A stretch of DNA of 62,216 nucleotides from a virus (lineage: Duplodnaviria; Caudoviricetes): IMG/VR virus record IMGVR_UViG_3300046357_000001, positions 1 through 62,216 of that record. The stretch is one strand, 5' to 3'. Positions 36,094 through 48,707 of the stretch are shown in pieces. Each line of letters starts with the position of its first letter. The first letter of the stretch is position 1. Under the pieces are notes generated by a model. The model worked only from the letters and a program-made list of their open reading frames with translations, was not told the origin of the DNA and made no database searches. Position numbers and translations under genes: made by a program.

Positions 36094-36271
36094 AGAACCA
36101 GACTCCGATGAGGCCGTTGCGGATGCCGGGCGTAGCCCGAGCATCCAGCATCCTTAGTTTGATGGCTTCCTTTAGGCCAGCTTCACGGATGGCGGTGGTA
36201 TCAAGGCAGGGGATGAAAAACCCCTGCCCCTTCTCAGTCTGCTCCCAAGGATAGTGAATCGCGAGTTTCAT
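36068..36271 (-). CDS. Small hypothetical protein
   Basis: YPWEQTEKGQGFFIPC...GVWF, last gene of the replication operon, overlaps the convergent giant gene. Confidence 0.55.
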   Translation of the reverse strand: MKLAIHYPWEQTEKGQGFFIPCLDTTAIREAGLKEAIKLRMLDARATPGIRNGLIGVWFFRTGSQSS

Positions 36272-39125
36272 CGTCCATGTCCGAGATACGACAGCTAACT
36301 TTCAATACCGAGACACGCATCTGCGGGCCTTGTGTACGCGCTGTCATGTTCTTCTTAGGCATATGGGACACCGCATACGTGCCAGCCAACTGCCGCTTGA
36401 AGTCAGAATACCCGAAACTCATGGAAGAGCAATACGCTTTGAGCAGTTGTTCCTCAATATAGAAGTCAACGTGGTCTGGCGTAAAGCCGTGCTCTACACG
36501 CCCCATGATCTGTGAACGCGTTGTGGACTTGTCCACTTCCCCGCCACGGCCCAGCTCCGCCAAGATGCTGCCAGCGTTCTCACGCACAACAATGAAGTGG
36601 CCGTAGTTCTCGCGGGTAAACGAGTTCAACACATCTTCCGCGCTACGAGCGTTCGACTTGATGCTGCCGCGCATACTAGCCAAGGCTTTCTTCAAGCACG
36701 CAATGATGGGCTTGCTCGGTACATGCACGATACCCAGTTCTTTGGCAATGATGCGCCCAGTCACGATGGTGGAGATGCCGGCCATCCAGAAACGCTCGTC
36801 GTTGGTAGCCCCGAACTCTTTGTACATTGCTTCGCCAGCTTCGCGCACCATGCTCTGCAAGCTGTCTGCGTGGTCAACCATGTACTGTGCAAAAAGGTAG
36901 CCAGCCACAGCGTAGTTCTGCTGCAACGATTTCAGGAGTTCGATCTCGTACGGTTCCCACTCAAGGACGCGTGTTGGGAGAAACTCGATCAAGCGGCGCA
37001 GCTCACCTTCGGATGAGTGCTTACGCCCCCCTGTCAGGCCATCGACCACATGCGTGTTGGAAGACATGATCGCGCAGGTCATCCACGTACTGTTGTTGAT
37101 ACGCTCTTTGTTGGCGCCAGACTCCATACGCTCCTTGCCGCGGCCCTCGGTCATATCCAGCAGGAACTCAGGCAACCACTCAAAGTTAGCGCGGTTCTTA
37201 CTTGTCAGCTCGTCAGTGATGAGTGGGTGGCTGTTTAGCAAACCAAGGCGCTGTTGCATGGCAACAGGCGAAGTGCTCTTACCTGTACGGTAATGAACTG
37301 GGTGGCCCCACACAGATGCGGCGGCTTCCAAAGCCAGTGACTTACCCGTACCTGACTCGGTGGAGCCCACGTGGTACGTCATGCCGTAGATGCCGGTGAA
37401 GCGCATAAGTGGAGCGCCCATACCCGCCAACATGATCGTCAAGTGCTCCCACATTTCTTTGCGTACGTACATCTGCATGACGTCGCGCCACGCTTCGATT
37501 GAGCCCGTTGGTTTGGTGTTGTTGACGATGTTCTCAAGGCCGGGCATAGGCACAGCCAGTGGGGGTTTACCCTTAGAGAATATCTTGCCAGCGAACACAT
37601 AAGTGTTGTCTGGTTGCCAGCCGTAGTTGGCGGGGACTTTGGTTGGTGCTTTACTTGTGCTTGCTTGCTCCACAGCTGCTCTCACATAATCAAATAGGTT
37701 TTTATCGTTACCGGAACCAAACGCCGCAATGATGTTTTGGTTAGCCAATGCCTTGACCGTTTCGTCTTTACTGACGATGGCCTTTTGGGACATGGTGATC
37801 GTCTCCGCGCCTTCAGGACGGATGCTCAACATGTGTACGGTGTGTTCACCGTTGTGCTTCAGGATGTCCACCACGAACAAGTCGTGAGGAACCACCATGA
37901 TTTGGCGCTTGCTCTTGTTGCCTTCGGTGTCTTCGTCTTCCTTCTCCATGAAAACACCACCACGCGCACCGTAGGCATAGCCTTTGGGTGGGGTAGGGCG
38001 AATAACCTTGTACACGTCTTCGTGGGCGGCATCAGGAATATGCACTTCAATCTCTTTGGCTTCGGTCTCGACCAAGACTTCGCGACCTAACGCGAGGGGG
38101 TTGGTGATCTTGCCGAAGTGTGAACACCCGTCACATACGCCGGGATTCTCGCTGTCAAACTTGACGCAACCGTACGGCCCTTTGATCTCATTCAGCTTCT
38201 GGTGCATACGCTCGTGCGTGTATGGGTGCAACTCCGTCAACCAGATCGCAGCCTTCTCACCGTCCGCGCAGGGCTTGGCAATACTCAACCAGCCGCGCCA
38301 CAGGGGTTCCATGCCGTCATCACTGGCGTTGTCCACGAAGTGCTTGAGCTGGGCGCACCCCTTGCCTGCATTGGTCACCTTCAAGATGCTCTTGAACATG
38401 GTCGTGCTGTTCTCCATGAGCTTCACGCCAGTAGCGGTAACAGGCGCGTTTGACGGACGCTGGCCGGGCAAGCTCAACGCGGAGGGTGTCGCTACTGCCG
38501 CAGGCGCAATACTCGTCAACTGGCTCACCACATGAGCCTTGAGAGTTTCGAAGTCGAATATGTCGCCCTCCACCTTTAGCTTTACAGGGCGTGGGGTTTC
38601 GTACTTCTCTTTGAAGTTCACGGTGTCAGGTATGCGTAAGACGCGAGCTGCGTCAGCAGTCACGGTCATGTCGATGCTCAGCTTCTGTTGCTTACACAGG
38701 CGCTTGAAGTTCTCGGCCAAGGGTTTCCACTCAGCGATCTCAACCGCTTCCGTGAAAGGCCAGTAGCAGTGCAAGCCACCACCAGACACAACGATCCACG
38801 GCGTGCCTAGCAAGTCCAACCCTGTCTCAGCAGTGAACGTCTTGAGCGCGAACGCAGCCTTCTTCATGGACTCGTAGCCGTCCATATCAATGAACAACGC
38901 CTTGATGTAGCGTGCGTTCTCGGCCTTACGCTTCTTGGCATTGTCGAATGTAGCCAATGCAAAAAACACATCGGTCTTCTGCTCCACCCAAGTGTCTACC
39001 TTGGGGTAAAAATCCTCCAAGTTCTCAACGAACAGGTGTTCTTTTTTCTTAGTTAGCTCTGCCGTACAGTACGTCCCGTGGCCCGGAGACGGCAAAACCA
39101 CCGCTAGGAATTCAAGCGGGTTCAT
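36234..39125 (-). CDS. Primase-helicase (N-terminal primase-like domain plus DUF927/SF3-like helicase)
   Basis: FIDMD...SGGGLHCYW...RVLRIP primase motifs; ESGTGKS Walker A; ITDE Walker B; EGRGKER. Confidence 0.85.
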   Translation of the reverse strand: MNPLEFLAVVLPSPGHGTYCTAELTKKKEHLFVENLEDFYPKVDTWVEQKTDVFFALATFDNAKKRKAENARYIKALFIDMDGYESMKKAAFALKTFTAETGLDLLGTPWIVVSGGGLHCYWPFTEAVEIAEWKPLAENFKRLCKQQKLSIDMTVTADAARVLRIPDTVNFKEKYETPRPVKLKVEGDIFDFETLKAHVVSQLTSIAPAAVATPSALSLPGQRPSNAPVTATGVKLMENSTTMFKSILKVTNAGKGCAQLKHFVDNASDDGMEPLWRGWLSIAKPCADGEKAAIWLTELHPYTHERMHQKLNEIKGPYGCVKFDSENPGVCDGCSHFGKITNPLALGREVLVETEAKEIEVHIPDAAHEDVYKVIRPTPPKGYAYGARGGVFMEKEDEDTEGNKSKRQIMVVPHDLFVVDILKHNGEHTVHMLSIRPEGAETITMSQKAIVSKDETVKALANQNIIAAFGSGNDKNLFDYVRAAVEQASTSKAPTKVPANYGWQPDNTYVFAGKIFSKGKPPLAVPMPGLENIVNNTKPTGSIEAWRDVMQMYVRKEMWEHLTIMLAGMGAPLMRFTGIYGMTYHVGSTESGTGKSLALEAAASVWGHPVHYRTGKSTSPVAMQQRLGLLNSHPLITDELTSKNRANFEWLPEFLLDMTEGRGKERMESGANKERINNSTWMTCAIMSSNTHVVDGLTGGRKHSSEGELRRLIEFLPTRVLEWEPYEIELLKSLQQNYAVAGYLFAQYMVDHADSLQSMVREAGEAMYKEFGATNDERFWMAGISTIVTGRIIAKELGIVHVPSKPIIACLKKALASMRGSIKSNARSAEDVLNSFTRENYGHFIVVRENAGSILAELGRGGEVDKSTTRSQIMGRVEHGFTPDHVDFYIEEQLLKAYCSSMSFGYSDFKRQLAGTYAVSHMPKKNMTARTQGPQMRVSVLKVSCRISDMDDETRDSLSLGAD

Positions 39126-40875: not shown

Positions 40876-41286
40876 TTACTTAGCTGAAGGTTTGCGTACC
40901 GAAATGTCATACTCCGCATTGGAGTTCAGGCCGGGCGGTACGACCCCGGGGTTTTCTTCGAGGAACTGCTTCATGTTGGTCTGCGCGATGCGCTTCTCAA
41001 ACAAGTCCAGTGCATCATGTTCAGTGACGAAAGACTTGAAGCTGTCCCAGTCGGATGTGGAGTAGCGCGTCTTCACAGACAGCACCACGGTTCCTTGGTC
41101 CGTGCGCACAGATGTCACGCCGAGCGCTTGCATCTGTTCTTTCATTGCGGTCACGACTTCTGCTTGCTGTGCCTTGATGAGTTCGACTTGGGTGTCGTAC
41201 TCGCGGGTCAGTTCAGAAACGCGGTCGCGCATCTTACGGTAGATTTTGGCCAGCTTATCCAGCGGCACTAAAGTATCTTGGCTCAT
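40876..41286 (-). CDS. Hypothetical replication-module protein
   Basis: AGGAG RBS; coiled coil followed by SVRTDQGT...DWDSF...PPGL. Confidence 0.7.
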   Translation of the reverse strand: MSQDTLVPLDKLAKIYRKMRDRVSELTREYDTQVELIKAQQAEVVTAMKEQMQALGVTSVRTDQGTVVLSVKTRYSTSDWDSFKSFVTEHDALDLFEKRIAQTNMKQFLEENPGVVPPGLNSNAEYDISVRKPSAK

Positions 41287-41363
41287 TTACTTCTCCTATG
41301 AATTTGTTTTGTTGTGTCTAAGGTTGGACAGTGTACATGTTTTTATATGTTGGGCAACTCCTT

Positions 41364-43793
41364 TTAAGATTTAATTTCTGTGTCAAACAATTGGGTTAGT
41401 AGTGAGTGGTCACTAACCTTTGTTTCTAATGCTTTAAACATCTTTTTCTCAATCGGTGAGCCTTGGATGTGGATGACAGTCACTTTGTCGGACGTCTGTC
41501 CCTTGCGGTCAGCACGCGCACAACACTGCACATATTGCTCCACAGACATCAACGGACCGTAGAACACAACCGTGTCGGCAGCAGTCAAGGTAATACCGTG
41601 AGCAGATGCTTGGGGCTGCATCACAAGGACGCGTGGGTCTGGGTCAGTCTGGAACCTACGGATGATGTCACCACGCTTGGAGGCAGGCACGTCACCACGA
41701 ATCATCTCTGCGCTGATACCTTTCTTCAATAGGTAGTTGTGGATGTTGTCGATACTACTGGTGAACAACGCGAAGACCAATACCTTGCGAGTCGTCTCTT
41801 CCAAGATTTCCTCCAGTACCGCCAAGCGAGGCGCCGCATCAAACTCAACCACTTCACCGTTGTCGGTGTAGGCAGCGCCACAACTGATCTGCAACAACTT
41901 CGATACACCCGCCGCCGCATTGACTGCACTGATAGTCTCGCCGCCAGTTTGAATCAGCATACGGTCTTTCAAATGCTCGTAGTACTTCTTCTGTTGCGGC
42001 GTCATCGGCACTTCACGCGTCATCGTCACCACAGGTGGCAGGTCCAAGCATTCAGCCTTAGTGAAACGAATGGCGGGTTGTAACGCCTCGAACACTGTGT
42101 CTCCTGCGTTAGCCTTCGGAGCCCACTTGAACATAGTGATCTTGTTCAGTACTTTGTCGCGCCATGCTGTGTAGAACTTAGGTACGTTGGTAGGGTTGAC
42201 CAGCTTGGCCAGCCCATATGCGTCAGCAGGCGACTGTGATGCAGGTGTACCAGTCATCATCCACAACAACGTCTCAGGCTTGATGATGGATGCCAGCGCC
42301 TTCCAGCGCCGAGTAGTAACGGTCTTGTATGCGTTGCAGTTGTGTACTAACCAGTGATCCCCAACAAAGTAGTTAGGTGTTCCCGCAACTTCGAGGTTGT
42401 AGACAGCTTCACCGTCTGGGCATTCGATATGCGAAACACTTTCCACCCAAGCGTTTCCAGCTTGGTCTCCTTCTTCCGGTCTTGCGCTTGGCGTGCTGTC
42501 GCTGTATGACTCCCCCCGTCCACCTCCAGCCCTATCTTGAGGTGCGGCAATGCGAAGTCGAGCTTGTAGTTCGTAGGAAAGCCTTGCTGCCTCTTTCCCA
42601 ACGCTACGGGGTAGTTCCATACCCAACCCACAGGCAAGACCTTGGAAATCAAACACTCTGTTGGAGTCATCCCCGTGCCATTGCCGCCCCGCACCTTGGG
42701 TTTGAGCCCCAGCGCCTTTGCTGCCGCTGACAGTTTCGCTCGGTGTTCCGCAGTCTTTGGCCCCGAAGGTTTCCCCCGCTGCTCGTGTGGCATTTCGCAA
42801 AAGTAGCTCTTGCTGGGGTTCAGTAAGTGCCATCTCTTCCGTGCGCAGGATTTGGAGCAGGTCTGTCCAAGCGCCTTTTGGTACTTTTGCGCCCATGTGT
42901 ACCGGGATTGTGGAAAGTGGTACTCCTGCCCGCAAACAGGACAGTTCAAGACCAGATATAAGCCGTCTACCCGTAAGATTTTTGGCACACATCCATCCAG
43001 CGTCTGTGAAGAATGGGTGCTCTGGGGTGCACCGAATTGTTTTTCCGTTTCCAAGTTTGACCTCGACAATCTGTTTAGTGGTATTGCGTACAAGCCTGTT
43101 TATACCCATTACTCCGTCAGATGTCAAGACCTTATCCCCCATTTGCAGTTGTTCTATGGGCCGTCTACCTTGTGGGGTAGCCACCAAAGTCCCTGCTACA
43201 AAGCACTCATCAACGATAACCAGATCGAACTTGCCGTTGGCGTTTATCTCATCAGCAATTAAGTTCAAGCCTTCGTAGTTGGTAATGACGAACTCATAGT
43301 TCTGTTGCACCATCTCGATACGACGCGATGCTTGTGGGTGGTGGGCGATGATCGCGCTACGGTGAATGACGCTTGCGTTCAAGTCCTGCATCCAAGCTGA
43401 CTGCATGATCGACAACGGACACAGCACAAGGACTCGTCTCACTTCACCACGTGTCATCAAGTAGTCCGCGGCCCACAATGCTGAGAGCGTCTTGCCTGTG
43501 CCGGGCTCGCTAAACACGAATGCCTTGCGGTTGAGCGTTAGGAAAGATGCTGTATCAATCTGGTGTGCCATTGGCTTGTGACGGCCGGGCCAGTTATAGC
43601 GGCGTGTGATTGGTGAAGGTACGTCCTTCACCCCTAAGTTTTTAAGCACTCGACATTCGTCTAGTCCCCAGAAAACAGCTACCTCCGCAGACCCGTCTTC
43701 GTATTGCTCGACGACTTTGCTGCGGGGAATGACTGTGTACTTTTCTGGGTTTCTAGTTCGAAGGAGCAGCGCCTTGTCTTCGATGATTTCCAT
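41364..43793 (-). CDS. SNF2-family helicase containing an intein
   Basis: EPGTGKT, VIVDE|intein|CN, MTGTP, HGITLT, ARADRKGQ. Confidence 0.9.
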   Translation of the reverse strand: MEIIEDKALLLRTRNPEKYTVIPRSKVVEQYEDGSAEVAVFWGLDECRVLKNLGVKDVPSPITRRYNWPGRHKPMAHQIDTASFLTLNRKAFVFSEPGTGKTLSALWAADYLMTRGEVRRVLVLCPLSIMQSAWMQDLNASVIHRSAIIAHHPQASRRIEMVQQNYEFVITNYEGLNLIADEINANGKFDLVIVDECFVAGTLVATPQGRRPIEQLQMGDKVLTSDGVMGINRLVRNTTKQIVEVKLGNGKTIRCTPEHPFFTDAGWMCAKNLTGRRLISGLELSCLRAGVPLSTIPVHMGAKVPKGAWTDLLQILRTEEMALTEPQQELLLRNATRAAGETFGAKDCGTPSETVSGSKGAGAQTQGAGRQWHGDDSNRVFDFQGLACGLGMELPRSVGKEAARLSYELQARLRIAAPQDRAGGGRGESYSDSTPSARPEEGDQAGNAWVESVSHIECPDGEAVYNLEVAGTPNYFVGDHWLVHNCNAYKTVTTRRWKALASIIKPETLLWMMTGTPASQSPADAYGLAKLVNPTNVPKFYTAWRDKVLNKITMFKWAPKANAGDTVFEALQPAIRFTKAECLDLPPVVTMTREVPMTPQQKKYYEHLKDRMLIQTGGETISAVNAAAGVSKLLQISCGAAYTDNGEVVEFDAAPRLAVLEEILEETTRKVLVFALFTSSIDNIHNYLLKKGISAEMIRGDVPASKRGDIIRRFQTDPDPRVLVMQPQASAHGITLTAADTVVFYGPLMSVEQYVQCCARADRKGQTSDKVTVIHIQGSPIEKKMFKALETKVSDHSLLTQLFDTEIKS
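42339..43205 (-). mobile_element. Intein (289 aa) inserted in helicase Walker B
   Basis: Block A CFVAGTLV, block B CTPEHPF, block F VYNLEV, block G LVHN, +1 residue Cys. Confidence 0.95.
42347..42988 (-). CDS. DUF559/Vsr-like PD-(D/E)xK endonuclease overprinted in the +1 frame of the helicase intein
   Basis: CPVC...CSKSC Zn site, KTAEHRAKLS (NUMOD3-like), MTPTE, YKLDFA...LEVDGGSH...DRKK...LGWKVFRI. The GTG start at 42988 is a candidate; the frame is open from 43093. Confidence 0.85.
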   Translation of the reverse strand: MPKILRVDGLYLVLNCPVCGQEYHFPQSRYTWAQKYQKALGQTCSKSCARKRWHLLNPSKSYFCEMPHEQRGKPSGPKTAEHRAKLSAAAKALGLKPKVRGGNGTGMTPTECLISKVLPVGWVWNYPVALGKRQQGFPTNYKLDFALPHLKIGLEVDGGSHTATARQAQDRKKETKLETLGWKVFRISNAQTVKLSTTSKLREHLTTLLGITG

Positions 43794-43808
43794 TGCTTCT
43801 CTCTATCT

Positions 43809-44048
43809 TTATTTGTTATCGCCTTCGTTTGCTTTCTTGGCACGCAAACGCAAATTGCCCGGAGTTGTCTTACCACCCTTGCGCAGTGGCTTGATGTGGT
43901 CGATGTCCTTACCTGCGCGGTCGATACCCTTCTTGTCAAACAACTGGCGTGCGCGTTGGCGCTCGGATTGGTCAGACCCCGGACCGGACTTGCCGGTCTC
44001 TAGGTCACGTTTGTATTCTTTTGCGTAGTCGCGTTTGCGTGTTGCCAT
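43809..44048 (-). CDS. Small HNH-motif protein
   Basis: DIDHIKPLRKGG...NLR...N. Confidence 0.75.
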   Translation of the reverse strand: MATRKRDYAKEYKRDLETGKSGPGSDQSERQRARQLFDKKGIDRAGKDIDHIKPLRKGGKTTPGNLRLRAKKANEGDNK

Positions 44049-44057
44049 GATTTACTT

Positions 44058-44720
44058 TCAGTGTTTTTTGTGGAACTCACAGCCAGTGCAAGGACACCAG
44101 CCGCAGAGCGGGGTACGTGTTGGATTCCATACATCGTTGTCGATGCACGAAGCGATACGGCTAACGCGTTCACGATACTTCCACCATTCGGAGTCCATCT
44201 CGTCAACGTTCATGCTGTGCTTAACCATATCATTCTTGACCACGAAGAGCAACGCTGAGTTGACCTTGCGGATGTGCGGGAAGTGCTTGAATACCATCAC
44301 TGACATGAGGCGTAGCTGGTCACGGTCTGGGTACTTGTTGTTACCCGTCTTGTAGTCCACCACCCATGCAGTCAGGTTCTCGTCATCAATGATGAGCAAG
44401 TCGGCTACGCCCCTCACCCATGCATCTTTGGCAAACCATTCAGTCGGTGTCAGGTCTTCCTTCAGTGTCATCTTGTACTCAGCCAACTTGCGGCCGGGCT
44501 TGTTGATGAGCGCATCGAGCGTGTCCTTAACAAACTCAAACTGCTTGGGCAGCGGTGTGCCCTCACCTACGTAGAGTTCGGCTGCCTTGTGCAGCTCGTT
44601 ACCGTAGCGCGTAGCCTCGGTCTCCACGAATGGGTGCATCTTCAGAATACGTGTGGCGTGATACTTCCGCGCACACTGCTCAAACTCCTTGAGCGATGAA
44701 TGTGACCATGATATTTTCAT
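44058..44720 (-). CDS. Cas4-like/PD-(D/E)xK exonuclease
   Basis: WSHSSL...C, GNELH, RGVAD, VDYKTG, QL, CGWCPCTGC. Confidence 0.85.
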   Translation of the reverse strand: MKISWSHSSLKEFEQCARKYHATRILKMHPFVETEATRYGNELHKAAELYVGEGTPLPKQFEFVKDTLDALINKPGRKLAEYKMTLKEDLTPTEWFAKDAWVRGVADLLIIDDENLTAWVVDYKTGNNKYPDRDQLRLMSVMVFKHFPHIRKVNSALLFVVKNDMVKHSMNVDEMDSEWWKYRERVSRIASCIDNDVWNPTRTPLCGWCPCTGCEFHKKH

Positions 44721-45037
44721 AAGTTTCCTGCTGGGTGAAGAATTCGTTTTGCGGTTATGTAGGCAGCATGGGCTTCTTCGGCGGTATCAAAATATCCCAA
44801 GTGCTTTCGCTTCCCATCAACCTTGATGAAAGAAATAAAACGCTTGTGTCGTTTGTGCCAACTAGCGCCTAGTAGTTGCGTTGACTTGTTCTTCGGGCGG
44901 TACGCTTTTTGATTCTGTCCGTTCAACTTGTGGTTGGAAAGGCGTAGGTTCTTAAAGCGGTTATCAAGTGGGTTTCCGTTGATATGGTCAATCATTTCTG
45001 TAGGCCACACCCCCGTCTCAAACAACCAAACAATCTT
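44717..45037 (-). pseudogene. 5'-truncated HNH-AP2 homing endonuclease
   Basis: An in-frame stop directly precedes KIVWLFETGVWP; then IDHINGNPLDNRFKNLR and AP2-like HLGYFDTAEEAHAAY. Only a TTG or internal ATG start is available. Confidence 0.65.
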
Positions 45038-45041
45038 TTAT

Positions 45042-45344
45042 TCAAAACCTCGCAGTCTGGATTGCTTTGGTCAGTCGGTTGGCAAAGCCAGTGACGAACC
45101 GTTCGTTTTTGTTTAAGGTATCCATCCCCATGTCCTCAAGGATGGCGTGTGTCAGCTCATGCCAGAACGTGTCCGCAATCGCTTCGGGCTTGTACACCCT
45201 GCCGGTCACGTTGCTACGTTGGCCTATCGTGATGCACTTGGTAGGGTAGTTGACATCCCCCATGCGCCCACGCTGGGCCATAGCCTCAACGATCTCAACC
45301 GAGTAGTGCTTATTGCCCACTCGAACTTTTCTTGGTAGCTTCAT
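45042..45344 (-). CDS. Small HExxH metallopeptidase-like protein
   Basis: DTFWHELTHAIL...NERFV, AAGGAG RBS. Confidence 0.75.
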   Translation of the reverse strand: MKLPRKVRVGNKHYSVEIVEAMAQRGRMGDVNYPTKCITIGQRSNVTGRVYKPEAIADTFWHELTHAILEDMGMDTLNKNERFVTGFANRLTKAIQTARF

Positions 45345-45355
45345 TTGCTTTCTCC

Positions 45356-48217
45356 TTATTTCTTTGCTAACCCGTATCGTCTGTGTGCGCCACCGTCAGC
45401 GTCGAGCGGAATGCCCTTCAAATACTTTGGCTCCATAGTCATCTGCGCCAAGACCCAAGTCTTAGCGTCATCCACCTCTGCATCAGGCACAACCACGATC
45501 TGTTCATCATGCACTGTTCCCGCCACGAAGTACTTCTTCGAGGTTCTCAACATACCATCCGTCATCACGCATCTCGCTACGCCCTGCGTGACGTTGTTGG
45601 TAATCTTTCCAGCGTACAGTTTAGTCTCATCTGCGCCGTATGTCCACTGCACCCTACCTTTTTCATCCTTGCCACGCTTCAAGTCCGGATACAGCAAGCT
45701 CATGCCAGAGGGCAGCACGATCTCGCCCTTCTTAAACGTCAGGCATTTGTATGTGTATTCCTTGCCACCGAACAAGCTAGTCTCGATGAGCTGGCCGCAC
45801 ATGCCCCAGAAGTCCACAACAGGCTGCGCAGTCTTACGGTACTTGTCGATAATCTTCTTGGCCGCTAGGCAGTGGATGAGCAACTCTGCCTTGGTACAGA
45901 TGTGCGGTATCTCATTCATCTTTTCAACGAAGTCTTCATTGTCCAAGAACTTCTCAACGTCTTCCGCCGTGACGCCCAGTGCCTTGGCGAACTTTCGCTC
46001 GTACCGTACAGGTGGCGCACCCAAGAAGCCCACGAGGAGTTGAGACGCAAATGATGCCCAACCTAACCCATACCCGCAGTTGTGCACAATCAATGGCCCT
46101 GCGTCCGTCCGAATGGTGTATCTGTTACGCGGCCCTGCATAAGCGATGTCGTAGGTCTGCATTCTCTGCTTCAAGGGTTGCGATGCGGGTGCGTAGTTCG
46201 ACAACTTCTCGTGCGGTGATTTTGCGCTTGTTGGACATATTGACGCTGCGGTTGACGAAGCGAAGGTTGCTTGGTTCATAACCTCGGTTGTTGTCTGTCC
46301 TATCCAGTTGAAGTTCTGGTTTGTCCCACCCCTCAAGCCCAACGAGGTAACGTAAGAATTCAACACGGTTCGCAACCCATTCTGGGTAAACCGTAATTCC
46401 ACGCCCCCCATAGTCGGGGTACACGGAACTGTTCGGGTTTGTGCATCTGACGATGATGGCGCTGATTCTGTCCAAAAGTCGAGCACGATGCTTTCGATCA
46501 GGGCAAACAGCGAAATATCCTTTTCGTTCCCATCGAGTTTCAACAGCCTTTCTTTTAGCGCAGGCATCGCAGCGCGTAGTACGCCCTGCAACAATGTTAT
46601 ATCTATCGACAAACCCCGACCACCCGCAGGAGCACTGCACAACAGGATGGAATCCACCAGTTGTCTTGCGATCCCAGCGGAGGCAGGTAAGCTCGCCGAT
46701 GACAGCGCCGATTTCAAAAGGGAACGGTTTGCTAGGGCCTCTGACCACTCCACCCACCCCCGTTCCGTCAGAATTTCGTGGCCCGAAGTCGCGCTTACCC
46801 CCAGTGCTGTCAGCACTTCCTTTTCGCCTTGCGGCACTAACCCCTGATGACATACCCACTCCTCTCCATCCCATACCATATCCGTAGCCTGTACCCGTGT
46901 TATAGGTATCCAACCGCGTCTAGTCAACACAGGCGTGTCGGGGCCGAAGCACCCAAGTAAAGCGGACTTCGCTGACTGCCGAAGGTCGGGGTGTGACTCT
47001 TTTGACAGGCCCGGGATGTTGAACATCTGAGCGCCGAACTGTGCGTAGGGGTCACCGCCCGCGACGAAGATGCGTAGGAGTTCGTCGTATTCTGCCAGCC
47101 ATGCGAGAACCCGAGGCTCGATCTGCGATAAGTCGCCGACGACCAACTGATAGCCTTTCGGAGCCATGATAGCTTTGCGGAGAAACGAACCACGTTTGAG
47201 GTTTTGCATGTTGATGGCCGAACCTTTGCTTGCAGTCCACCGTCCCGTCGCAGCACCATAGTACGAGAGTGGTACAGGAAGCGTGCCCCGTCCGGCGATG
47301 TCGAGGAACCGTTGTGCACGAGTCCTCTCCGTGGTGGATTTAACTGAGAGCCTTGCTTGGCATAGTGCTTGAACATCTTCGTTGTCTCCGTTCAACATGG
47401 CTTGGAACATCGCATCGGTTTTGGCAAACGCGAAGTTAACACCCGTCGGATGCGGTGTCTTGGCCGTGGGTTTCTTTTTCTTGGTAGGTGGCTCGATGCC
47501 CACTAAGCGCAACGTCTCAGCGAAGCGCACGTTACTGGCCAAGTCCCCACCCATCACCTCAAGGCGGGCAAGCAAGGCTTCACGCTTCTCCTTCTCATCA
47601 TGCAAGGCATCGACCAACATGTTTTGATCCAGTACCAGCACGGGACGCGTGTACATCTTCAACGTCATGTCGATGAGTCTCAGCTCCTTTGCTGGATAGG
47701 ATGCAGCCAGCCTTTTGAATATTTCTTCGCACAGAAACACATCATGTTGGCAGTACTCAGCGAGTTCTCTTTCGAGCGTGGCGTCCAACTCGTGAACTCC
47801 ATTAGTTGAATATACGGCCGTGCCTTTAGCCGGGAGGCCGAAGTCGGTTGCCAGTTTCGCGAGGGAATTACCAACTTCCACGCCTCGTAAAGCTCGGCCC
47901 ATTGATAAGGTGTCGAAGATGAAGCAGGGGTGGATCTTGTACTTCCATTCGAGGATGGCCACATCGAACTGTGCGTTATGCGCGAGGATGGCCGTGTTGT
48001 CCCAGTCGAATGTCTGAAGGACTCGAGGTAGTTCATCTCCTCGATACCACTGCACAATTCCGTCGCTTCCGTATACATGGAGGCAAGCTCCGAATACTTT
48101 GAATCTATCATGGCGTATGTACTCCTCGGTTGTCATCTTCGATAGGGTGTAACCGCTAGCGGTGTCCCAGTAGGTTTCGTAGTCGATTGTTACGATCTGT
48201 TTAAAAGGTGCACTCAT
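45356..48217 (-). CDS. Family A DNA polymerase with 3'-5' exonuclease, containing an intein
   Basis: IDYET, AHNAQFD, YCQHD, ATGRW, NMQN, motif A DLSQIEPR, motif B RQSAKSALLG|intein|CGYG, motif C TVHDE. Confidence 0.95.
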   Translation of the reverse strand: MSAPFKQIVTIDYETYWDTASGYTLSKMTTEEYIRHDRFKVFGACLHVYGSDGIVQWYRGDELPRVLQTFDWDNTAILAHNAQFDVAILEWKYKIHPCFIFDTLSMGRALRGVEVGNSLAKLATDFGLPAKGTAVYSTNGVHELDATLERELAEYCQHDVFLCEEIFKRLAASYPAKELRLIDMTLKMYTRPVLVLDQNMLVDALHDEKEKREALLARLEVMGGDLASNVRFAETLRLVGIEPPTKKKKPTAKTPHPTGVNFAFAKTDAMFQAMLNGDNEDVQALCQARLSVKSTTERTRAQRFLDIAGRGTLPVPLSYYGAATGRWTASKGSAINMQNLKRGSFLRKAIMAPKGYQLVVGDLSQIEPRVLAWLAEYDELLRIFVAGGDPYAQFGAQMFNIPGLSKESHPDLRQSAKSALLGCFGPDTPVLTRRGWIPITRVQATDMVWDGEEWVCHQGLVPQGEKEVLTALGVSATSGHEILTERGWVEWSEALANRSLLKSALSSASLPASAGIARQLVDSILLCSAPAGGRGLSIDITLLQGVLRAAMPALKERLLKLDGNEKDISLFALIESIVLDFWTESAPSSSDAQTRTVPCTPTMGGVELRFTQNGLRTVLNSYVTSLGLRGGTNQNFNWIGQTTTEVMNQATFASSTAASICPTSAKSPHEKLSNYAPASQPLKQRMQTYDIAYAGPRNRYTIRTDAGPLIVHNCGYGLGWASFASQLLVGFLGAPPVRYERKFAKALGVTAEDVEKFLDNEDFVEKMNEIPHICTKAELLIHCLAAKKIIDKYRKTAQPVVDFWGMCGQLIETSLFGGKEYTYKCLTFKKGEIVLPSGMSLLYPDLKRGKDEKGRVQWTYGADETKLYAGKITNNVTQGVARCVMTDGMLRTSKKYFVAGTVHDEQIVVVPDAEVDDAKTWVLAQMTMEPKYLKGIPLDADGGAHRRYGLAKK
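46079..46951 (-). mobile_element. Intein (291 aa) inserted in polymerase motif B
   Basis: Block A CFGPDTPV, block B ATSGHEI, block F TYDI, block G IVHN, +1 residue Cys. Confidence 0.95.
46125..46853 (-). CDS. HNH-like endonuclease overprinted in the +2 frame of the polymerase intein
   Basis: CSCG...CDAC, RCTNPN...YGGRGITV...W...LDRTDNNRGYEPSNLRFV...N..NKR. ATG 46853 is preceded by GGAGAGGAG; GTG 46748 is an alternative start. Confidence 0.88.
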   Translation of the reverse strand: MSSGVSAARRKGSADSTGGKRDFGPRNSDGTGVGGVVRGPSKPFPFEIGAVIGELTCLRWDRKTTGGFHPVVQCSCGWSGFVDRYNIVAGRTTRCDACAKRKAVETRWERKGYFAVCPDRKHRARLLDRISAIIVRCTNPNSSVYPDYGGRGITVYPEWVANRVEFLRYLVGLEGWDKPELQLDRTDNNRGYEPSNLRFVNRSVNMSNKRKITAREVVELRTRIATLEAENADLRHRLCRAA

Positions 48218-48410
48218 ATTCTTCCTCTAATACTGTCAAATGTTTTGGTTCATACCAGCTGCAAGTCTTTTCTTTTTTCTTTGAACACCCACAACTCAAG
48301 ACAAACTGGTGGGTACTTTGGGTCGGTGTTGTGCTTGATGCGCATGATGGTGCCGAACAAATCCTTGGGCAGGGGGCCAAAGGACTCGTGGGTGTAAACC
48401 AAGACGCCAA
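48201..48410 (-). CDS. Small Cys-containing hypothetical protein
   Basis: Fills the gap between co-oriented genes. Confidence 0.4.
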   Translation of the reverse strand: MASWFTPTSPLAPCPRICSAPSCASSTTPTQSTHQFVLSCGCSKKKEKTCSWYEPKHLTVLEEEYECTF

Positions 48411-48413
48411 CTT

Positions 48414-48707
48414 TCAATTCATCATCTCCTTGGGCGGTGCGTCCAGTGTGTTCATGTCCATGAAGAAGGCTTGCAACTTCCCCAGCGTAAGGGCGGCTTC
48501 CAGTTCGCTACAGTTAACCGTAACAAGCGTTGTCCCTTCTTCTTCGTCTTTACTCATCACGATCACAGCACGGCGGTCTGGTTCTACGTAGCAGTCAATG
48601 ATCTTGCCTACTAGCATACGCATGTGGTCTCGTTGCTCTTGGCTGAGCTTGTCAATCTTGAGCATGAACTCAAGTGACTCTTTTGTTTTGCCTAGTGTGT
48701 CGCGCAT
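48414..48707 (-). CDS. Hypothetical protein
   Basis: GGAG RBS before ATG 48707. Confidence 0.65.
   Translation of the reverse strand: MRDTLGKTKESLEFMLKIDKLSQEQRDHMRMLVGKIIDCYVEPDRRAVIVMSKDEEEGTTLVTVNCSELEAALTLGKLQAFFMDMNTLDAPPKEMMN

What the first reader, a model, noticed from the sequence alone, without database searches (positions are those of the whole stretch)
41364..48217. Dual-coding inteins: both inteins carry an endonuclease in an alternative reading frame
Seen: two unrelated inteins of about 290 aa sit at conserved catalytic sites (helicase DE|C, PolA motif B LLG|CGYG). Both have intact splicing blocks. The middle of each intein frame has no LAGLIDADG or HNH motif and reads like featureless S/R/A/G/L-rich linker. 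In both, a second same-strand frame is open for more than 600 nt, has its candidate start and its stop inside the intein, and encodes a recognisable endonuclease. The two use different nuclease families (DUF559/Vsr-like and HNH-like) and different frames (+1 and +2). Established: canonical intein homing endonucleases are in-frame domains between blocks B and F. Inference: these are inteins with an overprinted, separately translated homing endonuclease gene, so nuclease expression is uncoupled from host-protein synthesis and splicing. The different families and frames suggest two independent origins. Standard annotation would miss the nested genes and call these degenerate inteins. I do not know of a description of this architecture, but could not check the literature.
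Basis: partly seen in the sequence, partly recalled or inferred. Interest (0 to 1): 0.95.

Follow-up and report, generated by a model that had tools for sequence, protein, structure and literature searches.

The report
Two inteins with out-of-frame homing endonucleases
Two self-splicing protein inserts in a freshwater phage's helicase and DNA polymerase genes each hide a separately read nuclease gene in another reading frame, a real and conserved arrangement that has recently been described for other inteins.

Summary
The SNF2 helicase (41364..43793, -) holds a 289-aa intein and the PolA polymerase (45356..48217, -) a 291-aa intein. Neither has an in-frame nuclease domain. Each holds a same-strand out-of-frame ORF: +1, DUF559/Vsr-like of the EDxHD type, and +2, named HNH by PHROGs and PacI-like by motif. 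These are the two longest alternative-frame open runs in the window. Both frames are open with the same offsets in 25 of 25 related loci, including Jerseyvirus, EBPR siphovirus 2, Pseudomonas MR14, Vibrio CP-T1 and Corynebacterium phi673. In the centre of each intein the most variable codon position follows the nuclease frame. Catalytic residues are invariant across 49 and 54 homologs. Close relatives mostly lack the inteins (78 of 78; 78 of 79). Independent metagenome contigs show no indels. The dual-coding reading therefore holds. Translation and cleavage remain untested. The novelty claim does not hold: Gosselin et al. 2025 and Phillips et al. 2026 describe out-of-frame intein endonucleases and cite Gorbalenya 1998. 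What may be new is these two pairings, their wide spread and the deep conservation of the overlap. Interest is moderate: new members of a known, rare kind.

The parts
41364..43793 (-). SNF2-family helicase gene (809 aa precursor) that hosts intein 1
   Evidence: Pfam SNF2-rel_dom E 1.9e-18 and Helicase_C E 9.8e-15; phrog_62 DNA helicase E 3.7e-99.
42339..43205 (-). Helicase intein (289 aa), inserted in motif II: DE|C...HN|C
   Evidence: Pfam Intein_splicing E 5.4e-12 and Hint_2 E 1.4e-9. NCBIfam intein_Nterm E 2.2e-8. Of 79 close helicase relatives, 78 have a 0-nt insertion at this site and 1 has 867 nt.
42347..42949 (-). Nested ORF1, +1 frame: zinc-finger plus EDxHD/Vsr-like (DUF559) homing endonuclease. 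About 200 aa from the proposed TTG start at 42949; stop codon at 42347-42349. The frame is open upstream to 43093.
   Evidence: DUF559 E 6.2e-8. Start column holds TTG in 10, ATG in 2 and CTG in 2 of 14 sequences. AlphaFold2 model pLDDT 86.3. Best Foldseek PDB match is 3r3p, the I-Bth0305I catalytic domain: probability 1.00, E 4.6e-3, target TM 0.69.
42401..42664 (-). Nuclease core of ORF1 (residues about 96-183 of the 200-aa product), with D131, E142, D144, H148, D157 and K160
   Evidence: These residues are invariant in 49 aligned homologs. The model shows strand and helix elements 110-183.
45356..48217 (-). Family A DNA polymerase gene (953 aa precursor) that hosts intein 2
   Evidence: Pfam DNA_pol_A E 4.2e-16 and DNA_pol_A_exo1 E 1.9e-5; phrog_17 DNA polymerase E 5.3e-65.
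46079..46951 (-). PolA intein (291 aa), inserted in motif B: LLG|C...HN|CGYG
   Evidence: No Pfam or NCBIfam intein match. Support comes from: C1, a TSGH block B, terminal HN plus Cys; an exact 873-nt insertion against 78 of 78 intein-less relatives; hhalign to the helicase intein N-domain, probability 94%; weak profile matches to PDB inteins, E 0.016-0.08. The homologous Ent1 segment is annotated as an intein with the same computed boundaries.
46125..46859 (-). Nested ORF2, +2 frame: zinc-ribbon plus His-Me-like (PacI-type) endonuclease with a C-terminal coiled helix. 244 aa from the GTG at 46859. An ATG lies at 46853. Stop codon at 46125-46127. The frame is open upstream to 46913.
   Evidence: phrog_374 E 1.4e-31. 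Start column holds ATG in 7 and GTG in 2 of 9 sequences. Model pLDDT 87.0; residues 1-23 score below 50 and the blocks up to residue 40 average 41-60. BFVD matches to phage 'HNH endonuclease' proteins reach E 6e-20.
46859..46867 (-). Purine-rich Shine-Dalgarno-like stretch GGAGAGGAG just upstream of the ORF2 start codons. AGGAG ends 5 nt before the ATG at 46853.
   Evidence: Read directly from the sequence. GGAG- or GGTG-like stretches appear 4-9 nt upstream in some homologs: L006, L007, L010 and Ent1 have GGAG, while L008 and L009 have only GGTGA. The same bases encode the conserved host-frame residues WDGEEW.
46230..46310 (-). Predicted beta-beta-alpha metal-finger of ORF2 (residues 184-210), with D186, R187, Y194, N198 and N210
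   Evidence: D186, R187, Y194 and N198 are invariant and N210 nearly invariant in 54 homologs. The model shows strands 184-187 and 199-202 and helix 204-210. The profile aligns this motif to PacI residues 88-108.

Best explanation
Each insert is a class-1-type intein (Cys1 ... His-Asn|Cys+1) whose central loop has been overprinted by a homing-endonuclease gene read in a different same-strand frame.

The long precursor ORF is translated straight through. The N- and C-terminal splicing blocks fold and excise the intein. The central 170-190 residues of the intein frame act as a passive linker that is only kept free of stop codons.

The nuclease is made as a separate small protein from an internal start on the same mRNA. 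For ORF2 the start is GTG 46859 or ATG 46853, behind an AGGAG. For ORF1 it is probably TTG 42949, which has no clear Shine-Dalgarno sequence.

ORF1 is an EDxHD/Vsr-like enzyme of the I-Bth0305I type. ORF2 is a zinc-ribbon His-Me-finger enzyme of the PacI-like kind, in which a loop Tyr is thought to replace the general-base His.

Each nuclease is inferred to cut the intein-less allele of its host gene at the insertion site during mixed infection. Repair then copies the intein and nuclease across (homing).

Shown here: the anatomy, the conservation of both frames, selection acting on the nuclease frame, invariant active-site residues, and a patchy distribution among relatives.

Inferred: internal initiation, splicing, cleavage specificity, and origin by invasion of a mini-intein by a free-standing endonuclease gene.
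For: (1) Both frames are open, with the same offsets, in 10 of 10 ORF2-related and 15 of 15 ORF1-related loci. At the match mid-point the third frame is open for at most 84 codons.

(2) All annotated isolates checked are out of frame in the same way. ORF2, offset 2, 3 of 3: Ent1, EBPR siphovirus 2, Ijeoma. ORF1, offset 1, 5 of 5: MR14, CP-T1, phi673, Vibrio 1.088.O, Vibrio 104E43.1.

(3) Codon-position variability. In the exteins and splicing blocks, host position 3 varies most (0.65 and 0.56). In PolA intein residues 101-260, host position 2, which is nuclease position 3, varies most (0.61-0.67). In helicase intein residues 141-260, host position 1, which is nuclease position 3, varies most (0.30-0.52).

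(4) On identical alignment columns, amino-acid identity is 0.58 in the nuclease frame against 0.28 in the host frame for ORF2, and 0.68 against 0.50 for ORF1.

(5) Invariant residues. ORF1: D131, E142, D144, H148, D157, K160 in 49 sequences. ORF2: four Cys plus D186, R187, Y194, N198 in 54 sequences.

(6) Folds. The ORF1 model best matches the homing endonuclease I-Bth0305I (3r3p, probability 1.00); Vsr (1vsr) ranks 15. The ORF2 model has a beta-beta-alpha element, and its motif aligns to PacI. PMC5714182 (passages read) states that PacI lacks the catalytic His and uses a loop Tyr instead.

(7) The start column is conserved. For ORF2, three homologs have a stop one codon upstream of the ATG.

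(8) Intein-less alleles dominate: 78 of 78 close PolA relatives and 78 of 79 close helicase relatives. Four contigs carry the helicase intein but not the PolA intein.

(9) In distant hosts the nuclease is more conserved than the exteins: Ent1 0.45 against 0.24-0.27; MR14 0.35 against 0.20-0.22.

(10) Contigs from runs not flagged as the source cover both inteins with no gaps.
Against: No direct evidence exists for translation of either nested ORF, for splicing or for cleavage. No RNA run was listed.

ORF1 has no recognisable Shine-Dalgarno sequence. Its proposed start is a weak TTG, and it is CTG in 2 of 14 homologs.

ORF2 matches no Pfam or NCBIfam nuclease model: 0 of 54 family members hit an HNH model. 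It has no significant PDB fold match (best E 0.6). It has Arg where HNH enzymes have the general-base His. The PacI link rests on a 21-residue alignment with whole-sequence E 0.031.

The sigma-70-type promoter scan found no excess of sites (3 found, 5.1 expected).

The codon-position and identity counts are summed over related sequences and are not independent events.

The PolA insert matches no curated intein model.
Confidence: 0.85

Rival explanations
1. The nuclease is not made from an internal start. Instead it is made by programmed ribosomal frameshifting out of the host frame (+1 for ORF1, -1 for ORF2), giving an N-extein/intein-N/nuclease fusion.
For: ORF1 has no Shine-Dalgarno sequence, and its frame stays open 13-49 codons upstream of the proposed start in all 14 sequences. 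Both nested frames are open well into the N-terminal splicing domain.
Against: For ORF2, three of nine homologs have a stop one codon before the conserved ATG, and the column is ATG or GTG in 9 of 9. For ORF1, the two most distant homologs, MR14 and CP-T1, have ATG exactly at the proposed start column. No X_XXY_YYZ heptamer lies in the helicase intein. The two in the PolA intein lie downstream of the start of the nuclease fold.
Confidence: 0.07
2. The nested frames are decaying relics of endonuclease genes. They are no longer expressed and remain open only by recency or by composition.
For: No expression data. ORF1 has a weak start codon. ORF2 lacks the canonical His.
Against: The open frame and offset persist down to 33-45% amino-acid identity across phages of Salmonella, Pseudomonas, Vibrio and Corynebacterium and across metagenomes. 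The most variable codon position follows the nuclease frame. Active-site residues are invariant.
Confidence: 0.05
3. This is an artefact: the nuclease is really in frame, and compensating sequencing or assembly indels shift it.
For: None was found.
Against: 25 of 25 independent loci and 8 of 8 isolate genomes have the same offsets. Contigs of runs X5 and X6, from other samples, cover both inteins with 0 gaps. The only indel listed is at 45345, outside both genes. The host frame would carry about 5 stops by chance.
Confidence: 0.01
4. The inserts are group I introns carrying endonuclease genes, not inteins, and the open host frame is incidental.
For: Relatives of ORF2 are annotated as HNH endonucleases in Staphylococcus phage K and similar phages. 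From recall, not checked here, some of these sit in group I introns. The PolA insert matches no curated intein model.
Against: No Rfam family matches 41000..48600 at E <= 1. The insert ends are Cys1 and HN|Cys in 23 of 23 full-length aligned sequences, the window's included. The ends of the insert evolve with host-frame codon periodicity, meaning protein-level selection. The host frame is open in 25 of 25 loci. hhalign links the PolA insert to a Pfam-confirmed intein.
Confidence: 0.01

Closest known systems
Non-canonical actinobacteriophage inteins with the endonuclease in a separate frame (Gosselin, Arsenault & Gogarten, bioRxiv 10.1101/2025.01.02.630785; abstract and sections 8 and 15 read)
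   Same: A contiguous intein whose homing endonuclease is a separate ORF inside the intein. The distribution is patchy among close relatives. The proposed origin is invasion of an intein by a free-standing endonuclease gene. A Vsr-like/EDxHD nuclease related to 3R3P is among those reported.
   Different: In that paper the same-strand out-of-frame case is an endonuclease VII-like gene in frame 3, and the Vsr-like and LAGLIDADG genes are antisense. Hosts are terminase, minor capsid, thymidylate synthase and a DNA polymerase of actinophages. Here the Vsr-like gene is same-strand +1 in an SNF2 helicase, and a PacI-like His-Me gene is +2 in PolA, mostly in phages of Proteobacteria. [quoted passage not shown] Here the ORF2 N-terminus and the ORF1 C-terminal tail overlap splicing blocks. 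'Salmonella' does not occur in its main text. Its supplements could not be seen.
Cyanobacterial dnaX intein with an out-of-frame LAGLIDADG endonuclease (Phillips, DeSimone & Gogarten, bioRxiv 10.64898/2026.09.14.751524; abstract and section 17 read), which credits Gorbalenya 1998, 'Non-canonical inteins' (not held; known only through citations)
   Same: A same-strand +2 ORF inside an intein. There is purifying selection in the nuclease frame and relaxed constraint in the overlapped intein frame. Intein-free alleles coexist with intein-bearing ones.
   Different: The nuclease is LAGLIDADG, the host is a cellular gene (dnaX) and the lineage is cyanobacterial.
Fractured genes: split inteins with a free-standing Vsr-like or GIY-YIG endonuclease gene between the halves (Dassa et al. 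2009, PMC2677866; passages read)
   Same: The same Vsr-like/EDxHD nuclease family sits inside an intein at a catalytic site of a phage replication gene. The endonuclease 3' end overlaps the downstream intein part by 6-69 bp.
   Different: There the host gene is broken into two ORFs and rejoined by trans-splicing. Here the host ORF stays contiguous because the other frame carries no stops.
[quoted passage not shown] 2025, PMC11855218; abstract and passages read)
   Same: A hidden endonuclease in the third frame of an insert that reads through in the host frame, with a GTG start near the 5' end and the stop near the 3' end.
   Different: ShiLan has no splicing domain and is thought to remain as a loop in the methylase. 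Here intact splicing blocks flank the overlap.
I-Bth0305I (PDB 3r3p) and PacI (PDB 3ldy), the solved nucleases closest to ORF1 and ORF2
   Same: ORF1: same catalytic fold and the E, D, H, D residues. ORF2: the motif D-R-x-D-x3-G-Y-x-P-x-N-x-R is shared with PacI residues 88-108.
   Different: I-Bth0305I is a 'homing endonuclease' by its PDB title; that it is intron-encoded is recalled, not checked here. PacI is a restriction enzyme. The ORF2 to PacI similarity is weak (E 0.031; Foldseek E 0.9).

Membership tests
Intein (HINT splicing domain): helicase insert | Curated intein or Hint profile match above cut-off | tested here: met
   Intein_splicing 46.2 bits (cut-off 35.8), Hint_2 38.9 bits (cut-off 28.4), and TIGR01445 34.9 bits (cut-off 24.5).
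Intein (HINT splicing domain): both inserts | Cys/Ser at position 1, a block B T-x-x-H, terminal His-Asn, and Cys/Ser/Thr at +1 | tested here: met
   Helicase: C1, TPEH, HN|C. PolA: C1, TSGH, HN|C. C1 and HN|C are kept in 9 of 9 and 14 of 14 aligned sequences.
Intein (HINT splicing domain): PolA insert | Curated intein or Hint profile match | tested here: not met
   No Pfam or NCBIfam intein family at E <= 1 or E <= 0.01 respectively. Indirect support: hhalign to the helicase intein N-domain at probability 94%, E 1.5e-7, and PDB intein chains at E 0.016-0.08.
Intein: both inserts | A precise in-frame insertion at a conserved site, with empty alleles in relatives | tested here: met
   0-nt insertion in 78 of 78 PolA relatives and 78 of 79 helicase relatives, against 873 and 867 nt here.
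Intein: both inserts | Protein splicing activity | not testable with these tools
   Inferred from intact blocks in replication genes presumed to be essential.
Canonical intein with an in-frame homing endonuclease | LAGLIDADG, HNH or another nuclease domain in the intein's own frame between blocks B and F | tested here: not met
   No nuclease family in the host frame. The centre of the host frame is unconserved among distant relatives.
Non-canonical intein with an out-of-frame endonuclease (Gosselin 2025; Phillips 2026) | A nuclease ORF inside the intein in another frame, with both frames kept open in relatives | tested here: met
   25 of 25 loci; 8 of 8 isolate genomes.
Non-canonical intein with an out-of-frame endonuclease | Purifying selection on the nuclease frame, with the overlapped intein frame relaxed | tested here: met
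   Codon-position shift and frame-specific identity. No formal dN/dS model was fitted.
EDxHD / Vsr-like homing endonuclease (DUF559; I-Bth0305I): ORF1 | Profile match, fold match and the catalytic E, D, H, D residues | tested here: met
   DUF559 32.9 bits (cut-off 20.6). 3r3p at probability 1.00, target TM 0.69. E142, D144, H148 and D157 invariant in 49 sequences.
EDxHD / Vsr-like homing endonuclease: ORF1 | Site-specific cleavage of the empty allele | not testable with these tools
HNH / His-Me finger nuclease: ORF2 | Match to a curated HNH profile | tested here: not met
   0 of 54 family members match any Pfam HNH model at E <= 0.01, and there is no NCBIfam match. Only PHROG families named 'HNH endonuclease' match.
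HNH / His-Me finger nuclease: ORF2 | Beta-beta-alpha metal-finger topology | tested here: met
   The model shows strands 184-187 and 199-202 and helix 204-210, with pLDDT of 95 or more over residues 181-210. This is a prediction only.
HNH / His-Me finger nuclease: ORF2 | General-base His at the end of strand 1 | tested here: not met
   Arg187 is invariant at that place.
PacI-type His-Me variant (group 20 of PMC5714182): ORF2 | A D-R motif with a loop Tyr in place of the catalytic His | tested here: inconclusive
   The motif aligns to PacI 88-108, with D, R, D, G, Y, P, N and R shared. However, the whole-sequence E is 0.031 and Foldseek gives E 0.9 at rank 4.
Group I intron with an endonuclease gene | Match to an intron covariance model | tested here: not met
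   No Rfam match at E <= 1 in 41000..48600.

The most novel reading that the evidence does not exclude
The overlap is not a short-lived accident of invasion. It is an old, stable and selected design. The same frame offset has been kept from freshwater phages to Jerseyvirus, Vibrio, Pseudomonas and Corynebacterium phages, while the exteins diverged to 20-27% identity. If that holds generally, many phage inteins of about 250-300 aa now filed as 'splicing domains only' or 'degenerate' would in fact be fully mobile elements with hidden nucleases. The PolA intein annotated in Ent1 is one example, and 156 Salmonella phage records match its nuclease, though the frame was checked in only two of them. 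Burying the start codon inside a heavily translated essential gene might itself set the low nuclease dose that homing elements need.
Probability: 0.3. Interest if true: 0.7.

Novelty: new member of a known kind. Interest (0 to 1): 0.55.

Why it matters
First, it corrects annotation. The PolA intein of the much-sequenced Jerseyvirus Salmonella phages is annotated in Ent1 as 'encoding splicing domains' only. The helicase inteins of MR14, CP-T1, phi673 and several Vibrio phages are in a similar position. All of these carry a hidden endonuclease gene in another frame that is under selection.

Second, it adds two nuclease families to the recently recognised class of inteins with out-of-frame endonucleases: same-strand EDxHD/Vsr-like, and a PacI-like His-Me type. 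It also extends the class from actinophages and cyanobacteria to phages of Proteobacteria.

Third, the deep conservation of the frame offset suggests the overlapped state can be stable over long times. This bears on the 'splicing first, nuclease later' model of intein origin and on counts of 'dead' inteins in the homing cycle.

Fourth, these are compact natural examples of long dual-coding stretches of 600-730 nt. One frame is selected for protein sequence and the other only for the absence of stops. That makes them useful test cases for gene finders and for models of overlapping-gene evolution.

Tried and rejected
DNA search. Near-identity search of the 6.9-kb region against GenBank phages found no match. 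I used protein-level searches instead.

Fold and profile searches for ORF2. Foldseek of the ORF2 model against PDB gave nothing significant (best E 0.6). Pfam on all 54 ORF2-family members gave no nuclease family, only coiled-coil or HTH noise. NCBIfam gave nothing for ORF2.

Internal promoters. The sigma-70-type scan found 3 sites against 5.1 expected, and none sits upstream of a nested start. Phage promoters of other types are not covered.

Frameshift signals. No X_XXY_YYZ heptamer lies upstream of either nuclease fold. +1 signals cannot be scanned by a simple rule.

Alternative ORF2 starts. GTG at 46757 and 46748 are start codons in 7 of 9 and 6 of 9 homologs but are absent in Ent1 and EBPR siphovirus 2. 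I kept them as secondary candidates.

Alternative ORF1 starts. A GTG at residue 36 of the open frame and the upstream TTGs are not conserved outside close relatives.

Expression. No RNA holder was listed for the region, so expression could not be examined. The laid runs were contigs. Parts of the PolA intein had no cover in X9 and little in X6, which says nothing either way. One joint skipping 41900-42160 in X6 had a side of only 20 letters and lies in the C-extein, so I disregarded it.

Not run. No formal dN/dS model was fitted; codon-position and identity counts were used instead. Complex prediction, the search of protein representatives, the protein-atlas search and the listing of cluster members were not used. 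I did not verify that the LPSE1 'uncharacterized protein' (BFVD top hit) is the nested ORF of that phage.

Rows dropped. L011 and L012 (ORF2 set) and L019 and L020 (ORF1 set) are cut by contig ends. They were used only and left out. L001-L004 were left out of the alignments sent to structure prediction, as the tool requires. For A1, I aligned 50 of the 120 proteins listed, 3 locus-derived proteins and the window's own (54 rows). For A2, I aligned 45 of the 68, 3 locus-derived proteins and the window's own (49 rows). I chose them by eye for coverage and spread. A3 and A4 hold 9 sequences each.

Literature. Searches were. No paper found describes the Jerseyvirus PolA or SNF2-helicase out-of-frame nucleases. 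This covers only the held open-access and bioRxiv library. Supplements were closed, including Gosselin et al.'s tables of intein clusters, which could list related cases.

Full report
WHAT IS THERE

The window is a whole 62,216-base viral contig from IMG/VR, rated 96% complete. Metagenome runs that hold it are labelled freshwater.

On the minus strand, 41364..43793 encodes an 809-aa SNF2-type helicase and 45356..48217 a 953-aa family A DNA polymerase. Each carries an insert at a catalytic motif. In the helicase, residues 197-485 (window 42339..43205) sit in motif II: DE|CFVAG...LVHN|CNAYK. In PolA, residues 423-713 (window 46079..46951) sit in motif B: LLG|CFGPD...IVHN|CGYG.

The helicase insert matches curated intein and Hint models. 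The PolA insert matches none. It does have Cys1, a TSGH block, and a terminal HN followed by Cys. Its profile aligns to the N-terminal domain of the helicase intein (hhalign probability 94%, E 1.5e-7) and weakly to solved inteins (E 0.016-0.08). Its homolog in Salmonella phage Ent1 is annotated as an intein with exactly the boundaries I computed. Neither insert has a nuclease domain in its own frame.

THE NESTED FRAMES

A same-strand frame at offset +1 is open at 42347..43093 inside the helicase intein. A frame at offset +2 is open at 46125..46913 inside the PolA intein.

ORF1 matches Pfam DUF559 above its cut-off. ORF2 matches PHROG families named HNH endonuclease (phrog_374, E 1.4e-31).

These are the two longest same-strand alternative-frame open runs among the 28 ORFs of at least 250 codons in the window: 264 and 250 codons, with the next at 186. 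When the codon order of each nuclease ORF is shuffled, the host frame stays open in only 18 and 23 of 20000 trials. About 5 stops are expected. The double openness is therefore not chance.

NOT AN ARTEFACT

Contigs from runs not flagged as the source of this DNA (X5, X6) cover both inteins with no gaps. One X5 contig of 2089 bases spans the whole helicase intein and both junctions without a difference. The only indel listed in the 6.9 kb lies at 45345, outside both genes.

COMPARATIVE EVIDENCE

tblastn with the nested proteins hit the polymerase genes of Jerseyvirus Salmonella phages and of EBPR siphovirus 2. It also hit the helicase genes of Pseudomonas phage MR14, Vibrio phage CP-T1, other Vibrio phages and Corynebacterium phage phi673.

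In every annotated record I opened, the match lies out of frame with the annotated CDS, at the same offset as in the window. For ORF2 this is offset 2 in 3 of 3 records: Ent1, EBPR siphovirus 2 and Ijeoma. For ORF1 it is offset 1 in 5 of 5: MR14, CP-T1, phi673, 1.088.O and 104E43.1. None of these 8 records annotates a nested gene.

IMG/VR gave 8 more ORF2 loci and 13 more ORF1 loci. Across all 10 and 15 loci, both frames are open and the third frame is closed. All full-length relatives have the insert at the same site, with C1 and HN|C.

WHICH FRAME IS UNDER SELECTION

In the exteins and in the first 60 and last 30 intein residues, host codon position 3 is the most variable. In the centre of the PolA intein, host position 2 is the most variable (0.61-0.67, against 0.19-0.55 for the other two positions). 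Host position 2 is the third position of the +2 frame. In the centre of the helicase intein, host position 1 is the most variable, and that is the third position of the +1 frame.

I repeated this on alignments made in the nuclease frame. Nuclease positions 1/2/3 differ by 0.39/0.31/0.63 for ORF2 and 0.23/0.25/0.42 for ORF1. On the same columns, amino-acid identity is 0.58 against 0.28 (ORF2) and 0.68 against 0.50 (ORF1), in favour of the nuclease frame. These sums run over related sequences and are descriptive, not a formal test.

The host-frame alignments show conserved ends and an unconserved centre.

WHAT THE NESTED PROTEINS ARE

ORF1. In an alignment of 49 homologs, the residues invariant in the zinc finger are C31 and C35, with C3 and C6 nearly invariant. 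D131, E142, D144, H148, D157 and K160 are also invariant. The model has pLDDT 86.3. Its best PDB match is the catalytic domain of homing endonuclease I-Bth0305I (3r3p: probability 1.00, E 4.6e-3, target TM 0.69). Vsr itself ranks 15. This is the EDxHD/Vsr-like family that Dassa et al. 2009 found between split-intein halves and that Gosselin et al. 2025 found antisense in actinophage inteins.

ORF2. In 54 homologs, four Cys are invariant, as are R138, C139, Y150, R153, G154, I155, D186, R187, Y194 and N198. The model has pLDDT 87.0. Its first 23 residues score below pLDDT 50 and the blocks up to residue 40 average 41-60. It has a zinc-ribbon sheet, a helical middle, a beta-beta-alpha element at 184-210 and a long C-terminal helix. 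It has no significant PDB fold match. It matches many viral proteins named HNH endonuclease or AP2.

No Pfam HNH model matches any of the 54 sequences, and Arg stands where HNH enzymes have the general-base His. The profile's best PDB hit is PacI, aligned over D-R-x-D-x3-G-Y-x-P-x-N-x-R (E 0.031). PMC5714182 states that PacI lacks the catalytic His and uses a loop Tyr instead. Y194 is invariant and lies in that loop. I therefore read ORF2 as a PacI-like His-Me nuclease, and this assignment is weak.

START SITES

ORF2. One alignment column holds ATG in 7 and GTG in 2 of 9 sequences. Three sequences have a stop one codon upstream of it. In the window this column is GTG 46859, with an ATG two codons later (46853) preceded by AGGAG and a 5-nt spacer. 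The roughly 40 N-terminal residues overlap the N-terminal splicing domain and are predicted to be disordered.

ORF1. The column just before the zinc finger holds TTG in 10, ATG in 2 (the two most distant relatives) and CTG in 2 of 14 sequences. No Shine-Dalgarno sequence is evident. The ORF1 stop lies 8 nt before the intein end, so its tail overlaps blocks F and G, where host-frame periodicity dominates.

No sigma-70-like promoter excess was found, and no -1 slippery heptamer lies upstream of the folds.

MOBILITY

Among the 80 closest PolA relatives in IMG/VR, 78 of the 78 with both flanks have no insert. Among the 80 closest helicase relatives, 78 of 79 have none and one has 867 nt. Four contigs carry the helicase intein but an empty PolA site.

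In distant hosts the nuclease is more similar to the window's than the exteins are: Ent1 0.45 against 0.24-0.27, and MR14 0.35 against 0.20-0.22. This fits transfer of the intein and nuclease as a unit, although slower evolution of the nuclease is not excluded.

No Rfam intron model matches the region.

COMPARISON WITH WHAT IS KNOWN

Four literature searches show the architecture is already in print.

- Gosselin, Arsenault and Gogarten (bioRxiv 2025; abstract and sections 8 and 15 read) report actinophage inteins with a same-strand frame-3 endonuclease VII-like gene and with antisense LAGLIDADG and Vsr-like genes. They credit Gorbalenya 1998.
- Phillips et al. (bioRxiv 2026; abstract and section 17 read) show a +2 LAGLIDADG ORF under purifying selection in the cyanobacterial dnaX intein.
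- Arsenault et al. 2025 (PMC11855218) describe an out-of-frame HNH gene in a methylase insert that has no splicing domain.

None of the texts I could read mentions the Jerseyvirus polymerase intein or SNF2-helicase inteins. Supplements were closed and Gorbalenya 1998 is not held.

VERDICT

Expression, splicing and cleavage are inferred. The claim of an undescribed architecture fails.

What remains possibly new is the following:
- two further intein and nuclease pairings: same-strand +1 EDxHD in helicase motif II, and +2 PacI-like His-Me in PolA motif B;
- both occurring in one genome;
- their spread across phages of several bacterial phyla, including well-studied isolates;
- the long-term stability of the overlap.

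Noticed in passing
window 43809..44048 (-) and 44717..45025 (-): Two small free-standing HNH genes lie between the helicase and polymerase genes. One is a 79-aa PF01844 HNH (E 2e-4). The other is a 102-aa HNH_3 plus AP2 protein (E 1.3e-8 and 1.3e-5) that keeps the canonical His. The replication module therefore holds four endonuclease genes within 7 kb.
   Followed up: partly
window 44058..44720 (-): A 220-aa PD-(D/E)XK (Cas4/RecB-like) nuclease, PF12705 E 4.7e-19. Its 5' end overlaps the stop of the HNH_3 gene by 4 nt.
   Followed up: no
L001 (Salmonella phage vB_SenS-Ent1), locus 4799 onward: In Ent1 the helicase intein is annotated as carrying an in-frame LAGLIDADG endonuclease, while the polymerase intein is annotated as 'splicing domains' only. 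One phage thus has a canonical and a hidden-nuclease intein side by side.
   Followed up: no
L004 (Vibrio phage CP-T1), nuclease frame upstream of locus 2501: The CP-T1 homolog of ORF1 has a second, duplicated C-x2-C ... C-S-K-x-C zinc-finger module with its own ATG upstream of the shared one. Its nuclease may therefore start earlier and be longer.
   Followed up: no
BFVD entry A0A1L7DRS1 (Salmonella phage LPSE1): A 247-aa 'uncharacterized protein' of a Salmonella phage is the best structural match of ORF2 (E 5.7e-20, 38% identity). At least one deposited annotation may therefore already call the nested ORF. I did not check that it lies inside the polymerase gene, or that LPSE1 is a Jerseyvirus.
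   Followed up: no
window 42179-42278 and 45139-45836: Contigs of runs X5 and X6 break off into unlike sequence ('loose ends') just downstream of the helicase intein in the C-extein and at several places in the polymerase C-extein. These may be recombination borders between co-occurring phage variants.
   Followed up: no
window 36234..39125 (-): A 963-aa protein lies upstream of the region; I guessed a primase/helicase from its sequence but ran no family search on it. This suggests a large family of uncultured phages.
   Followed up: no
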